A DNA stretch of 64,000 nt from Pelomyxa schiedti (taxonomy: Eukaryota; Protista; Evosea), in the NCBI GenBank assembly GCA_020536535.1, contig JAHLWZ010000818.1, positions 49,666 to 113,665 on the forward strand, read 5' to 3'. Made by a program: the position numbers and the translations under genes. Positions 16,610-28,948 of this stretch are shown one piece after another (positions within the stretch are counted from its first letter, which is position 1; every line of letters begins with the position of its first letter). The notes below the pieces were generated by a model. The model worked only from the letters and a program-made list of their open reading frames with translations. It made no database searches and was not told where the DNA came from.

Positions 16610-17911
16610 TTACATAACAAGACAACAACGGATTGTGTAGGTGTACTTCCTCGCTGGCTTTCTGTGTTGCCTGGGGCTGCGAGGTGGTGAGATTATTTTT
16701 ACAGTTTTTATGTGTTTTGGTGTGGATCCATTTGGGTTGGATAGTGTCATACTCCCTCTGGTGCGGTGGGGTGAGTCTGTAGTTTGCTTTGGAGAAGAGT
16801 GTGTAGATGGTTCTTTAAGCGGAACGAAAACGTAGTCTGGTGACAGAGGGTGTGTATTTTCGTCGGGGTCTTTGTTGGCATCAGTAACAGAAGCAGAAGT
16901 AGAAGCAGAAGCTGCATCGCCACTGCTAGAACTCAGTTGAAGGCGTGTGATAGTGGGTACTGAGGCGAACGCGATCGCCGATGTAGGGGGAGTGGAGGAA
17001 GCTGGAGCGGTTGTCATTGTGGGAGAAGGGGTGAGGCTGTGTGCCGCGGCGGCGCTGGAGACTCCACCAGGTGGTTCCCGTGCACTGTCAGAAGGACAGG
17101 GCGCCGGGGTTGTGGTGGTGGTAGTGGTGGTGGTATTCGAAGTATTTCCAGTGGCAGGCTGTGATGGTTTTCCGCTCGGATGAGGTGCTTCATCTTTAAT
17201 AACCTGGGTGGTGAAAAGGTGCTCTGGTAAGTGAATGGTACAATTTTACTAGGAAATAAAAAGAAAAAGCAAAAGTAAAAACTGTACCATTGCATTCACT
17301 GTGAATTTACCGGAATCGGACAATTCAGGGCAGTCGTTGAACGAAAGGGGCTCCCAAAGCCTGTGCCCATCCAAAGTGAAAAGCTGCGTCCTTTCAAACG
17401 GCATATGTTGGTCCCCAAATCGATCACACACTGCAGCCTTGAGATTGAGAAAGGTGTCCCCAATGGACATGTGCAAATTTACAACTTGGCGCCCCTCGCT
17501 GCCTCCCAATCCGCCAGCCTCCGTGGACTGAGGCTGAGACTGAGAGGAATCATACTGGACCAATACAGTGATTTCACACATGTGCTTGACCTCAGGCTGA
17601 TCGTCGACGTCGGAATTGTAGCCGACAAGAGACGTGAGGTTGAGTTTGGCTTGTGGGAGATTTTTGTGTTGAGGGGGAGAGGGCGTGACGACAGTGGGGT
17701 TTGGATCGACGTCGTCGTCGTGGGGGGCTTGTGGGGGGCTGAGGGTGGGCGACTTGAGGATGGGAGGAGAGGAGTCGTGGCTGGGGATTATGGGTGGTGG
17801 GCCAGTGGGGGAGGCACCGTCGGGCTCGGAGGGAGTGGGCGAGATTATGGGACGAGCAAGGAGGTGCCCCGAGGGAGACGACGTCACGCCCTCGTTGGTT
17901 GTTGTGGCCAT
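16610..17911 (-). CDS. Ubiquitin-like-fold protein with Pro/Ser-rich flanks and C-terminal CaaX
   Basis: EITVLVQY...VVNLHMSIGDTFLNLKAAVCDRF...QLFTLDGHRL is a beta-grasp pattern; one phase-0 intron; ends RKPARKYTYTIRCCLVM*. Confidence 0.6.
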
Positions 17912-18392: not shown

Positions 18393-19536
18393 ATGAGTTT
18401 TCCGTACGAGTACATCTTCAAGTATATTGTGATCGGTATGTTTGTCTGGTGCATTCTCGTGTGTTTGTTGCTGATGATGATTTTTTTTTTCTTTATATGC
18501 ATAGGAGACACTGGCGTTGGGAAGAGCTGTTTGTTGCATCAATTCACTGAAGCGAGATGTTGATTTCCCCTCTCTTTGCTTCTCTGCAATATTCTTCCTA
18601 TATATTTCGATATACCTTACTTTTTAACTGAAGATATTTGTGCAACCTAACACACAAACAAGTCGTGGGAGATTGTCAACATACTATTGGTGTTGAATTC
18701 GGTACTAGAATAGTTGACGTTGATTCTAGGAAAGTCAAACTACAAATTTGGGTACCGTTTCTCTTTTTCGTAGTGGATCGTAACAATAACAGGATACTGC
18801 TGGACAAGAAAGATTCCGGTTGGTTTGTTGGCCAACACTTTTCTTTTCTTCGGTAGTTACAATTTTCCTGCAGGTCTGTATGTAGAGCTTACTATCGCGG
18901 AGCTGTAGGTCACTGTTTTATCTTATTGTCTTAGTTCCTCATCTCTATTTCTCCACCCTTCTTTTTATTAGGCGCCCTTTTATGTTATGATACTAGCAGG
19001 TCTACTTCTCCATTTCCCGTTTTTCGTCTTACGGAATATCTGTTGAACAGGCGGGACACCTTCAACAATATATCCAGTTGGTTGTCTGATGCCCGCAGCT
19101 TGACAGGTATTTCTGTCAGTGGACCCTCCTAATATCACAAAGGAACACACACTGTTATAATGCTCATTGGTACAAAAACTGACCTTCTAGAACAACGACA
19201 AGTCTCATACGACGAAGCAAGACAGTTCGCTGAGGATAATGGTACCCTGCTCGCACATGTCTTCTTTTTCCTCACTGCAAATAAGGATTAATGTTTGCGG
19301 AAACGAGTTCGAAAACGTGAGTGTGCAAAGCAATTAACATTATTTGAAAACATTTTCAAATACAGAGGTGAAAATGTTGAAGAAGCCTTTCTGCAGACAG
19401 CATATACTATATACCGAAATATTCTGGAGTGGTAAGAAACTATGAAGAACTAAACCCAAAAACACTTACTCCTCAAAGTACGGAGCCTGATCAACCCCCT
19501 CTGCCACCCAAGAATGAAAATAGTGATTGTTGCTAG
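18393..19536 (+). CDS. RAB14: Rab GTPase, Rab14 subfamily
   Basis: [77 protein letters not shown]; ends DCC*. Many short introns. Confidence 0.9.
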
Positions 19537-19729
19537 AACACCTTATGTAACTTTTTGTTAAATGCCAATAAAAAAAAACAGAAACAAAACAATACAACTA
19601 TTCTTCTTTTTTCTGATGTTTACACTGAACTTTCTTTCCCTCCCATCCCCGCTCTACATAGTACAGTACAGCACACACCCTTCTTTAGGGTCTGGAAATC
19701 CAGTCGTTTAGTGACAGCCATTCCTTCCT

Positions 19730-22709
19730 TCATGTGCCACTTTTCTCGGTGGTGTCTGAGCGCCGTAGTTGCACCACAGGGCGGGTGTTTATCTGCCGCT
19801 GAAGTATCTGGGGTGTGCTGCATGCCGTGATGGATGCAGGGGGTGGTGTGGCTGCGGCATTGGCATGGTCTTGGTTTTTCATGTGGTGTAGCAGTGATGC
19901 AACTTCCTCAAAGTTGGGTCTGTCATCGGGATTCTCGGCCCAGCAGGTTCGGATCAGCTTTTGTTTTGTTATGTTATGATTGGCAGTTTGCTGGGAATTT
20001 GAAAGTACCTTGAGGAACAGTACGGGTGGTGGTGCAAAGTCACTACTCTCAAAGTCCCAAAGGGGACGGCCACCCTCTCTGACATATGTTTCTATTTCAT
20101 GTTCGTACTTGAATTCCGCGTAGGGAATCTGTAGCTTGGATATTTCCCATAGAACAATACCAAAGCTGTACCTGGAACAATGTTATTTGAGAGTGTGACT
20201 GGGTGCCACATACACGTCAGCTTTTGCTGTGTATTCTCCCGAGTTTCGTAGTACCTCAGGGGCGCTCCACCTCACTGTACCGAGAGTCTTTGACATGATT
20301 GTCCGTATATGTGTGGAAATTCCTGTGAACATGATAAGGTCACAAAACTGTCGTGATTGGCATTACCGAAATCTTTTGGGTATTAGTAAGCCTGTGAATT
20401 TTGAGAAAAAAAGAGGATACCAGCTATTTTTGCAGTCAAAGTATCGTCTATTAGAATATTGGCTATAATATTTTCGTTGTTATAGAGAAGTGCATAGAGA
20501 AGGAAAACAAACCACTCTTTAGATCGCGATGCATCAGAGGGGGGGTCAAGGAATGAAGGTATTCCTGAATAAAGTTATAAGGTGAATGACTCAGTTTTTT
20601 CACACCATCCCAAGGGCCGAATCCAAAGCAATTTGAAGTCGAATTGACCAGTCCCATAGTTTTTTTGTTTGAGTCTGAATGACATCAAACAAGCTTCCAT
20701 TTGCAGCAAGCTCAGTCACGATGCTCAATGGAGGGGTAACGGTGGCTCCAATGAAGAGAACAATATTTGGATGCCGCAAGGACCTTCTATGATAAGATGG
20801 AAAATTGGAGATGTTGAGACGAACTGTAAAAGGGAGACTTCTTTTCGAAAGCTCTCTACACTCCCATCAGATATATTAGCTTCCACAAACGTTTTGACAG
20901 CCACAATTGAATGCTGTGCAAGTTCAATAAAAATTTCAGGTAGGAGATTAGAAACCCGGTAGTAAGCCTTGCTTACAACTCCAGAGGCACCCATGGCTAT
21001 TGGTGGGAATACAATTTTTAGATCCTTGTGCTCAATAACAAAGCCACCAAAGTCCAGTGTAACCTCGGTTTTAAATCCTAGCTTATGTAAGAGATTGATG
21101 GAGCAGTGCGTAAAACTACTATTGTTTTCTACAAATATTTGTGGTACGGTTTCATCTTGTTGTATCTTGTTCTTCCTCTTGACAAATATAACTGATAATA
21201 CGATTCCCTTGTTCAAGTCAAGAATTCCAATTGCAGAGGTAGTTATACCAATAATAGGATCGCACAGAAACATAAAGCAGAAGGGACAGCAATCCAAACA
21301 ACAGGTAATGGAGTAGCAGAGCAATTAGGTAGCCACTGTGTCCATACGTCAACATTCTGTTTCACCCAATAACATGCAGCTTCCTCGATACTGCACTGTT
21401 TCTAATTGAAGTTGGAAACATTTCATGCGGAAACACCTGTAGAGTACCGCTTTTGCCAGCATTTGGATTTGGTCGTTATTTGTATAACTGAACTTCTGTA
21501 AGAGATAATATGCAGATGGTGACTTCCTCTGCAAAAATGGGGAAAGCACTTTCAGTAGGACATCTCCTGGGTAATCACAATAGATTCCTCCCACAGCTGC
21601 TCTTGAATAGCATTCCACTGTTACCTTTATATTGAGTGCCATGCTTTAGTTTTGTGGAGTTGAATACCGCTATAAGGTGGCAGTGAAACACGAGTCAAAT
21701 CATACTCCGTAAAAATATAATGGGGTGTCCACCAATAGAAGAGTGCGGGTGTTGGTAGTGCAATACGGGAAAGCATATCCGCTTCATCTTTGACCCTTGA
21801 GATACTCAGAGGGTACCGGTTGTTGGTGATAATATCTCCATCGTAGCTTTTCTATAAAATCGTCAAGAAGTGGCACAAGTCCAAGCGCTTACCCAATCGG
21901 GTGGGCCTTCAAGTAGGGTATCATTAAAAACTGACGAGACCTGGGCTATTTCTATTGTACTGAGTGCAGACCAGTCTCGTGCATTTGGCCAGTCTGTAAG
22001 AACAAACGATTGGAAGTACCATCCTGAAATCGGTGAATAAAACGCTGTGGACAGCATTTAAAAAAAAACCTATTTGGCCAATCACTCCAAGAGGGGAAGA
22101 TTGCAGGAATCCTGAAGAAATGTATTCATAGATACTGGCTTTATTGTTCTCGGTCCTGTGAAAGTGTGAACATTGACAGCGGTGTCAACATATTACCATA
22201 ATTCAAGGCATACATCAAGCTGGCTGTTGTTCAAGAGCGAAAACATTGCATACTCATCTAAAACAAGAATTTGAAAATAAAGCATAATGGTCAGGACAAA
22301 GTTTTGATTCGAATCCTCCTGGCACACCAATGTCAACGATGTTGACACTGACATCTAGGATTTGTGTGAGTAGAAGCCTGGCCACTTCCACATTAAGAAA
22401 ACTAGAATCCCACGCCTGCCGTGCAATAGCAACACCACCTTGACTTGAAAAAGAAATAAAACGTGTGAGTTTTCAGCTGAACTCGCAAACGATACCCAGA
22501 CCATAAGTGGGGTTCCCAAGATACCCGTTTGAATCAATTTGGACAGTGCACGAGGGCTTGGGCACCACGCACTCATAGGGCACCGGGCCGCAATCGTCCT
22601 GGTCATCGTCGTCGCCGCCATCACCGTCCCCGCACCGCACAAGCTGCGTGCACAGCAGCAGAAACAAGCCCAACGCAACAACCTCCACACCAACTTTCCT
22701 TCCGATCAT
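19730..22709 (-). CDS. Receptor-type (signal peptide + TM) tyrosine-kinase-like protein kinase
   Basis: Signal peptide; Cys-containing ectodomain; TM followed by KRKNK; GASGVV, VAVKTF, LRHPNIVLFIGA, HRDLKS, spliced DFG, GTVRWSAPE, DVYSFG, CWAENPDDRP. Confidence 0.88.
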
Positions 22710-27116: not shown

Positions 27117-27190
27117 AAACAACAAATTGTGTTATCTGTTTCTGGCCTCTTCAATAATTAGCAGTTCCAGCCAATAATGGGTCTCTGTTC

Positions 27191-28527
27191 TTAGGCAGAG
27201 TAACAGCCTTGTGGGATAACGGCCTCGTTGCCGACTCCACACTCGTTGTTGCCACCGCACATGCGGAAGTAGCCACTCTCGCCCCAAGTAGCACCCCATG
27301 AGTTCCTGTGCGGAGACAAGTTGTCAGTACAGAAAAAAGGAGTGCAACACAGTCTGGGGATACTCACTTGATCGTGTACGAGTTGGTGGAGGCTGTCATT
27401 CCAGCCACAAGGACGGCGTGGTCAATGTTCTTTGGGTCGCACTGTTGGGGAAAGGGTTACTTACTTGCAAGGAACTATGGGGTTGTGGAAAAGTACCACA
27501 GATGGGCACCAGACTCCGCTTGAATAGTCGGAAAGAGTCTCTGCGTTAATGCCTACATCAACAGGCTGGACCATAGCGGCAGCTTGGAGATCTGCTTCGG
27601 TGGCGATTTCCTTGAAGGATGTAATATACCCCACATACTTCTTTGCCTCTTCCCTGTTAATATGTTAGGCACAATTGTTTCCAGTGACGTCACACATACG
27701 CGCATTTGCCAGCTTTAAGAACTGAGGTGTAAGGATAATCGTCCTCTGTCTCCAAGCCTACCTTGTTGTCAATCATCCATTGCATGGCGCCACTCTCCAA
27801 GCCACCCTCGCACCCACTGCAGTGGTATTTTATTCCGGAGACACAGTCCACGAGTTGTTGTTCAGAGAAGGAGGTAAGAGTGTATCCAGCAAGCTGGTAG
27901 CATCCCTCAATTGACCTAACAAAGTCAGGGAGGAAAGACAAAAGGAAAGGTGGTATGCACGTACTCAGCAGTGCCAAACGCCCAGCTTTTTAAGGTAAGA
28001 ATTAGCACAGCAAAGATTAAAACGTCATTCATACCAGCTGCCACATTCTTTTTGGTTCTTAACTGAAGTCACAGCCCCCTTGGCAACCCAGTCAATAGTT
28101 TGTGTGATGTTTGTTCCACTAGCACCAACGGCACGAGAACGGCGTGGAGCCATCAAATAATTAGCCTTGAACTCCTAAGTTGCAATTGAGAACAAACGAA
28201 ATGTGCGGGAATATGTGGTACCTCCGCTGTGAGGTCGGAGAATTGGTTAATGCCCTTTTTCCATGAGTGACCCTCGGCATTAAAGCGCTCAATTTCGGCG
28301 AGTTTGGCTGTCCAAAGAGTCTTGCGGTGCTTATATTCGGCCAACGAGTGATAAACTGCCCACAAAAGTTAGTCCAGATCTGGAAGTATGGACACACAAA
28401 CGCAAAACCATAAGAAACCAAGACGAGAGTAGGACGTACCCTTGCCATACTGCTTCACCCATGAATCAAAGTCAGAGAGTGCCGCAACGGCCCCAACGAG
28501 GAGTACCAACACAAGGATCTTGTTCAT
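27191..28527 (-). CDS. Papain-family (C1A) cathepsin-L-like cysteine protease precursor
   Basis: Signal peptide; I29 propeptide (GINQFSDLT); VKNQKECGSCWAF; SEQQLVDC; GCEGG; IDHAV; RNSWGATWGESGYFR. Confidence 0.95.
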
Positions 28528-28948
28528 CTCTTTTTGTTTGCTTTTTCTACAGTTTTCCACGACGTTTATGTTCCTTTGAAAACAACGAACTTTCCGACTA
28601 AAACCCCAAGATTTGGGGATCAATCAGATGACAGAAGAGATCACTTGCTCCGAGTCCCAGAAGCTTAAATTGGTCTCATAAATGGCAGCCACAACATAAA
28701 TCAGGTACCTTATCAAAGTCACAGATTCCAGAGGAGTATAACCTCCCGGTGAGTCCTCACATCTCCCAGACCCCATCACACGTCAGTCTGCCCCAAATCT
28801 CCTACTCTGAAGACCGGGGCGGTGATGATGAGAAGAAGTCGAGCAAAAGTGAATTTTTGATTTTTGTCGTGAGTGGCAGTAATTACCTGCGCCGTGACCC
28901 CTCGGCGGCTGCATCGACAAATTAATCATAAATACAAATTAACACAAA

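What the first reader, a model, noticed from the sequence alone, without database searches (positions are those of the whole stretch)
20367..20372. Kinase DFG motif depends on a 6-nt microexon: possible kinase/pseudokinase splice switch
Minus strand reads ...AAA ATA GCT G|gtatcc...tactaatacccaaaag|AT TTC G|gtaatg...cacag|GA ATT TCC..., which gives K-I-A-D-F-G-I-S. Both flanking introns are phase 1, so skipping the 6-nt exon gives in-frame K-I-A-G-I-S and removes the Mg-binding Asp and the Phe. Established: the DFG Asp is essential for catalysis. Inference: the receptor could produce active and dead (decoy) isoforms through a 2-codon splice choice. At minimum, automated annotation would likely miscall it a pseudokinase.
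Basis: partly seen in the sequence, partly recalled or inferred. Interest (0 to 1): 0.75.

Follow-up and report, generated by a model that had tools for sequence, protein, structure and literature searches.

The report
Six-base exon completes kinase active site
A real six-base exon supplies two essential active-site residues of a predicted receptor kinase in a free-living amoeba; the public gene model misses it and so makes the enzyme look dead, but all the RNA examined includes it, so it is likely an always-used exon rather than an on/off switch.

Summary
The microexon is real. Minus-strand 20372-20367 lies between GT-AG introns of 48 and 44 nt. RNA contigs of 3 of 3 runs carry these six bases at the joint (one sample, one study; two runs meet the 31-base bridging bar). 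With it the kinase reads K-I-A-D-F-G, at the Asp-Asp spacing seen in 327 of 351 homologous domains, and has a full catalytic set. The public protein (P0001, named Pelomyxa schiedti) lacks D-F and uses a 98-nt intron, so the mis-annotation claim is confirmed. The switch is not supported: no skipping joint was listed. Contigs drop minor isoforms, so low or conditional skipping stays untested. The microexon's own splice sites score lower than the outer ones. No second DF microexon turned up among 65 pattern hits. One kinase shares only the upstream intron, suggesting the exon arose by gain of a second intron. The host protein is a predicted solute-binding-domain receptor kinase. This is a new member of a known kind (closest: the plant invertase 9-nt mini-exon). 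The scan's earlier notes showed no DFG microexon elsewhere.

The parts
20367..20372 (-). 6-nt microexon: last two bases of the DFG Asp codon, the Phe codon, first base of the Gly codon
   Evidence: Sequence; included in RNA contigs of 3 of 3 runs
20373..20420 (-). Upstream intron, 48 nt, GT…AG, phase 1 inside the Asp codon; same position as an intron in the L043 kinase
20382..20388 (-). Branch-point-like TACTAAT just upstream of the microexon acceptor, likely offsetting a poor pyrimidine tract (inferred; consensus recalled)
   Evidence: Sequence
20323..20366 (-). Downstream intron, 44 nt, GT…AG, phase 1 inside the Gly codon; absent from the L043 kinase
20421..20462 (-). Upstream exon, 42 nt, ending in K-I-A
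   Evidence: RNA joints; model mapping
20214..20322 (-). Downstream exon, 109 nt: activation segment and APE motif
   Evidence: RNA joints; model mapping
19730..22709 (-). Host gene: 18 exons with the microexon; 714 aa (public model 712 aa); predicted signal peptide, OpuAC-type solute-binding domain, one transmembrane helix, TKL kinase
   Evidence: RNA covers only 19685-20868; the upstream part rests on the public model
21357..22433 (-). Region encoding the OpuAC (PF04069) ectodomain, residues 74-328, with introns
   Evidence: Pfam E 9.3e-13; PDB 4xz6 E 2e-9
21181..21299 (-). Region encoding the predicted transmembrane helix, about residues 348-373, with one intron
   Evidence: Hydropathy peak at 19-residue windows starting 344-358; helix 348-385 in model
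19892..21000 (-). Region encoding the TKL-type kinase domain, residues 412-659 of P0001
   Evidence: PF07714 E 4.3e-46; best solved relative CTR1 E 4.5e-45

Best explanation
The six bases are a true exon that is spliced into the main transcript and supplies the Asp and Phe of the DFG motif, and it is likely constitutive, so that the gene likely makes an ordinary active receptor kinase and the DFG-less public protein is likely an annotation error. Shown: the exon, its inclusion in RNA, the complete catalytic set, the missing D-F in the public model. Inferred: each flanking intron has the normal length for this genome (48 and 44 nt; median 46) and is removed as its own unit by intron definition, one after the other, so the exon need not be recognised across its six bases. 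Inferred: the exon arose when a second intron was gained six bases from an older intron in the Asp codon. Inferred: the protein senses a small solute outside the cell through a domain of bacterial type and signals through a TKL kinase. Any skipping would be low-level noise.
For: Inclusion in 3 of 3 RNA runs, no skipping joint listed. HRD-Asp to DFG-Asp spacing of 18 with the exon, as in 327 of 351 homologous domains. In a 10-protein alignment D and F are present in 9 of 10 rows, and K433, E451, H527-R528-D529, K531, N534, G547, E569, D582 and R650 are invariant, so nothing else marks a pseudokinase. The model's 98-nt intron is the longest of its 16 (one search lists 16; the other 15 are 41-70 nt). 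The 20 other RNA-supported introns I scored are 40-84 nt. All four splice-site scores lie within the range of 30 other introns. L043 shares the intron in the Asp codon but not the second one. Literature: exon skipping is raised only in bilaterians, lacks a 3n bias in nearly all non-animals, and goes with long flanking introns (PMC6142364, passages). Intron retention predominates in Acanthamoeba (PMC12404691, passages). Plant microexons are mostly included and often unannotated (PMC8831610, passages).
Against: The RNA is assembled contigs at low depth (2.7-9.6) from one sample and one study; such contigs drop minor isoforms, and no second condition was seen. The microexon's own acceptor and donor each outscore only 9 of 30 other sites, while the outer donor and acceptor outscore 25 and 26 of 30 (crude 30-intron matrix), the pattern that favours skipping. 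PMC6142364 links short exons and weak sites to skipping in all groups. Introns near 100 nt can occur here: 84 nt is RNA-supported, and about 104 nt is read by eye in the neighbouring Rab gene (not RNA-checked). The species' genome paper says models were improved with transcript data (PMC8887013, passages), so the DFG-less model could reflect a real skipped transcript. The L043 match was selected by my own pattern, so it is weak evidence for intron age.
Confidence: 0.84

Rival explanations
1. Regulated switch: under some condition the exon is skipped, giving an in-frame receptor that still binds ligand but lacks the Mg-binding Asp and the Phe, and would act as a decoy or scaffold.
For: Skipping is in frame. 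Inner splice sites are weaker than outer ones. The public model is the skipped form. Precedent: the invertase 9-nt active-site mini-exon is skipped in the cold in potato (second-hand, via passages of PMC8483784 and PMC3340406). An unchecked scan note reports a microexon array elsewhere in this genome (e1-10417779).
Against: No skipping joint in 3 of 3 runs. Flanking introns are short and of ordinary length. No conserved DF microexon was found among 60 metagenome and 5 viral-contig pattern hits. Frame-preserving skipping is not enriched in most non-animals. A 6-nt exon is in frame by its length alone.
Confidence: 0.07
2. The control point is intron retention: splicing around the microexon is slow, and retaining either intron would give a truncated or decay-prone transcript that turns kinase output down.
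For: Retaining the 48-nt intron reaches a stop in frame (ORF 20383-20574 ends …NSQAY), and the 44-nt intron shifts the frame. More than 72% of 69 constitutive plant microexons have a detained flanking intron (PMC8831610, passage). Retention is the main alternative form in Acanthamoeba.
Against: No RNA piece lies on either intron in the piece table. No regulation was observed.
Confidence: 0.08
3. The public model is right: the gene has one 98-nt intron and encodes a DFG-less pseudokinase.
For: P0001 as deposited.
Against: The six bases are in the RNA contigs of 3 of 3 runs; chance of the motif in that intron is about 1 in 6,000 or less; all other catalytic residues are intact.
Confidence: 0.01

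Closest known systems
Plant acid invertase / GH32 9-nt mini-exon (D-P-N of the NDPNG motif)
   Same: Tiny, phase-1, frame-preserving exon that encodes part of a key enzyme motif, is normally included and is often missed by annotation (PMC8831610 passages; PMC3340406 passages).
   Different: The invertase exon is conserved across plants and has reported cold-induced skipping (Bournay 1996, seen only as cited). Here the exon is 6 nt, in a kinase DFG motif, found in one gene of one species, flanked by introns under 50 nt, with no skipping seen.
Arabidopsis APC11 single-nucleotide constitutive exon (PMC4674806, passages)
   Same: Constitutive tiny exon, mis-annotated in databases, explained by intron definition with sequential removal. 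The paper gives 6 nt as the smallest constitutive exon known before it.
   Different: That exon is 1 nt and not frame-preserving. The size found here sets no record.
TKL-group kinases (CTR1/Raf-like, TNNI3K, TAK1, Dictyostelium Roco4)
   Same: Best solved relatives of the kinase domain: CTR1 E 4.5e-45, TNNI3K, TAK1, Roco4; full catalytic motif set once the exon is included.
   Different: Single-pass receptor layout with an OpuAC ectodomain. No other protein with this ectodomain came up, a search limited to 391-1246 aa and to shared words.
Bacterial OpuAC/ProX solute-binding proteins (PF04069; PDB 4xz6, 7yle)
   Same: The ectodomain matches PF04069 over profile positions 3-257 of 257, 4xz6 at E 2e-9 and an unnamed tandem protein P0156 at 36%.
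   Different: Fused to a membrane helix and a eukaryotic kinase; ligand untested. OpuAC as a eukaryotic receptor ectodomain is already reported for glutamate-type GPCRs (PMC3971589, one passage).

Membership tests
Internal coding microexon (15 nt or less) | Flanked by canonical GT-AG introns | tested here: met
   48- and 44-nt GT…AG introns
Internal coding microexon (15 nt or less) | Present in spliced RNA | tested here: met
   3 of 3 runs, 2 of them above the 31-base bridging bar
Constitutive microexon | Inclusion near 100% across conditions | tested here: inconclusive
   Only the included form was listed, but from contigs of one sample
Regulated cassette microexon (splice switch) | Skipped junction seen in RNA | tested here: inconclusive
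   Not listed in 3 of 3 runs; contigs show presence, not absence
Regulated cassette microexon (splice switch) | Inclusion changes with condition or stage | not testable with these tools
   No raw reads and no second sample were offered
Regulated cassette microexon (splice switch) | Exon conserved in orthologs or paralogs | tested here: inconclusive
   No whole genome held; no close paralog among the best 120 and 150 hits; 0 of 65 pattern hits had both introns in a kinase
Active eukaryotic protein kinase, TKL group | VAIK Lys, alphaC Glu, HRD Asp, catalytic-loop Asn, DFG Asp, APE Glu | tested here: met
   the glycine loop reads AMGASGVV, with Ala at the first Gly position (motif definitions recalled)
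Active eukaryotic protein kinase, TKL group | Phosphotransfer activity | not testable with these tools
   Needs an assay
Pseudokinase | Main product lacks a catalytic residue | tested here: not met
   The main RNA form restores DFG

The most novel reading that the evidence does not exclude
A unicellular amoeba toggles a solute-sensing receptor between an active kinase and a ligand-binding dead decoy by including or skipping just the two codons for the Asp and Phe of DFG, the smallest possible kinase-to-pseudokinase switch.
Probability: 0.07. Interest if true: 0.72.

Novelty: new member of a known kind. Interest (0 to 1): 0.27.

Why it matters
As shown, it is a clean, RNA-backed case of a public kinase model that lacks its DFG only because a 6-nt exon was missed. 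Pseudokinase counts in intron-dense protist genomes (this species has 7.43 introns per gene, PMC8887013) can be inflated this way. It also shows two introns of under 50 nt spliced six bases apart, a handy natural test of intron definition. Only if skipping proved regulated would it be a new signalling mechanism.

Tried and rejected
(1) Whole-genome paralog survey: no genome is held. Protein searches gave no other protein named for this species among the best 120 and no other hit to the ectodomain. The 50%-cluster search carries no names. So 'same exon in paralogs' is untested, not negative. (2) Pattern scan for K-[IVM]-[AS] | intron | DF exon | intron: 60 metagenome loci, of which 59 had no kinase match by tblastn. 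One (L043) is an intron-rich TKL-type kinase, but its D-F-G continues into a 60-nt exon, so it has no microexon. Five viral-contig loci had no kinase. The pattern is narrow and these collections hold little eukaryotic DNA. (3) search for related loci in viral contigs: nothing. (4) A second joint with letters between (16911/17259): rejected as another transcript, because both anchors are short low-complexity stretches and the contig has 188-255 loose letters on each side. (5) AlphaFold of the skipped form P0001 with a 10-row kinase alignment: the kinase lobes fold, residues 549-560 and the ectodomain are under pLDDT 50. There is no included-form control, so it says nothing about decoy stability. 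(6) RNA folding over the microexon: no unusual structure (z = +1.09). (7) Protein Atlas on the ectodomain: OpuAC clusters at 0.82, a lead only. (8) Lack of RNA cover upstream of 20868 is not evidence about the 5' part of the gene. (9) Paper searches for a DFG microexon or a DFG-lacking splice variant listed nothing that describes one. I saw listings only, and most subscription papers are not searched.

Full report
Observation. The minus strand shows an exon ending at 20421, a 48-nt GT-AG intron (20420-20373), six bases (20372-20367), a 44-nt GT-AG intron (20366-20323) and the next exon from 20322. Both introns are phase 1. With the six bases the frame reads K-I-A-D-F-G-I-S; without them, K-I-A-G-I-S. 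In 200,000 shuffles of the 98-nt composite intron the motif AG-AYTTYG-GT arose 32 times, 8 times with both flanks of 35 nt or more. Across the whole window the 10-mer is expected 0.71 times, so its place, not its existence, is what exceeds chance.

RNA. Three RNA runs (X1-X3; one sample, one study; assembled contigs) and one further run (X4, which holds the stretch in one piece and may be this DNA's source) were found. In 3 of 3 RNA runs the joint across 20323/20421 carries five extra letters that, with the base shared by 20323 and 20367, are the reverse complement of the microexon. The shorter side is 42, 42 and 23 bases, so two runs meet the tool's 31-base bar. Depths are 9.6, 3.96 and 2.7. 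No direct skipping joint was listed, and no RNA piece lies on either intron. Contigs drop rare variants, so inclusion is shown to be the main form and minor skipping is not excluded. RNA covers only 19685-20868 of the gene. Over 20 kb the tool showed 15 of 44 joints and listed two with letters between: this one, and 16911/17259, which I reject as a low-complexity match of another transcript. Many rows are marked 'between: not known', so this is no census of microexons.

The gene. A search with the 3' reading frame returned one protein, P0001, 712 aa, named 'protein tyrosine kinase [Pelomyxa schiedti]'. It maps exactly to 22709-19730 with 16 introns; 15 are 41-70 nt and one, at AKIA^GIST, is 98 nt. 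The deposited protein therefore lacks D-F. Pfam finds OpuAC at 74-328 and a kinase at 412-659, with a hydrophobic N-terminus and one transmembrane peak. The closest solved kinase is CTR1; the ectodomain matches a periplasmic betaine/proline-binding protein, 4xz6, at E 2e-9. In a 10-protein alignment the catalytic Lys, alphaC Glu, HRD, Asn and APE Glu are invariant, and D and F are present in 9 of 10 rows. Among 384 HRD-type motifs in 264 retrieved proteins, 351 are followed by a DFG-type motif and 33, including P0001, are not. The Asp-Asp spacing is 18 in 327 of the 351, and 18 here once the exon is included. The link between ectodomain and kinase rests on the public model, not on RNA I saw.

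How it likely works. Twenty other RNA-supported introns from the displayed rows are 40-84 nt, median 46, so the two flanking introns are ordinary and the skipping intron would be long. In such a genome introns are likely defined across their own length and removed one after the other, as proposed for the APC11 and invertase tiny exons (PMC4674806, passages). A branch-point-like TACTAAT lies just before the microexon acceptor. Against this reading: on a crude matrix from 30 introns, the microexon's acceptor and donor each outscore only 9 of 30 sites, while the outer donor and acceptor outscore 25 and 26. An intron of about 104 nt is also readable in the neighbouring Rab gene (not RNA-checked). 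Skipping is thus physically possible. The prior for a regulated in-frame skip is low: across 65 eukaryotes only bilaterians show raised skipping, nearly all non-animals lack a 3n bias, and skipping goes with weak sites and short exons between longer introns (PMC6142364, passages). In Acanthamoeba, retention predominates, though skipping events were also found (PMC12404691, passages).

Origin and conservation. No genome was available for a paralog survey, and protein searches showed no close paralog. A pattern scan for the two-intron layout gave 60 metagenome and 5 viral-contig loci; one, L043, is a kinase. It is 38% identical (98 of 255 aligned residues) and shares 2 of this gene's 8 kinase-region intron positions, including the one in the DFG Asp codon, but not the one in the Gly codon. 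So 0 of 65 loci carry the microexon. This fits an older intron in the Asp codon plus a newer one six bases on, but my pattern demanded the first intron and this is one example.

What is known. Microexons of 15 nt or less that encode key motifs, are mostly included and are missed by annotation are well described in plants; kinase domains top the list in Chlamydomonas (PMC8831610, passages). The nearest analogue is the invertase 9-nt exon, whose cold-induced skipping in potato I saw only as cited. The species' genome paper reports 149,016 introns and gene models from Augustus improved by PASA and EVM with transcript data (PMC8887013, passages); the word 'exon' does not occur in its main text, and I did not open its supplements. 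I infer that P0001 comes from such a pipeline; whether its skipped form reflects a real transcript cannot be told. Searches for a DFG microexon or DFG-lacking splice form (listings only) showed none. The scan's earlier notes hold no look-alike, but one unchecked note reports codon-sized exons elsewhere in this genome.

Verdict. Observation confirmed; annotation error confirmed; switch unsupported but not excluded. Constitutive exon 0.84, regulated retention 0.08, regulated skipping 0.07, true pseudokinase 0.01. New member of a known kind; interest 0.27.

Noticed in passing
window 21357-22433 (-): The receptor's ectodomain is an OpuAC/ProX-type solute-binding domain; its best non-self match in the 50%-cluster search is an unnamed tandem protein of bacterial type (P0156, 36%). 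A bacterial-type ligand sensor on a TKL kinase; no second example was found, origin not tested with a tree.
   Followed up: partly
L043 152-1498 (-): Intron-rich TKL-type kinase from a metagenome contig sharing two intron positions with this gene (before LRHPN/LSHPN, phase 2; in the DFG Asp codon, phase 1).
   Followed up: partly
window 18393-19490 (+): Rab-like small GTPase gene, convergent with the kinase gene, with a roughly 104-nt intron (18559-18662) and a short exon for D-T-A-G-Q-E-R-F; the Rab14-like label is recalled, not searched.
   Followed up: no
window 27150-28530 (-): Papain-like cysteine protease gene (label from reading the ORFs) with the deepest RNA contigs in the 20 kb laid, a 23-nt exon (27963-27985) and an 84-nt intron (28356-28439).
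   Followed up: no
window 16888-16911 and 17259-17280: A contig in X1 and X3 joins two low-complexity anchors with 7 letters between; most likely another transcript, not a microexon.
   Followed up: yes
window about 21060-21050 (-): A second D-F-G tripeptide (TLDFGG) sits just before the kinase domain; no role suggested.
   Followed up: no
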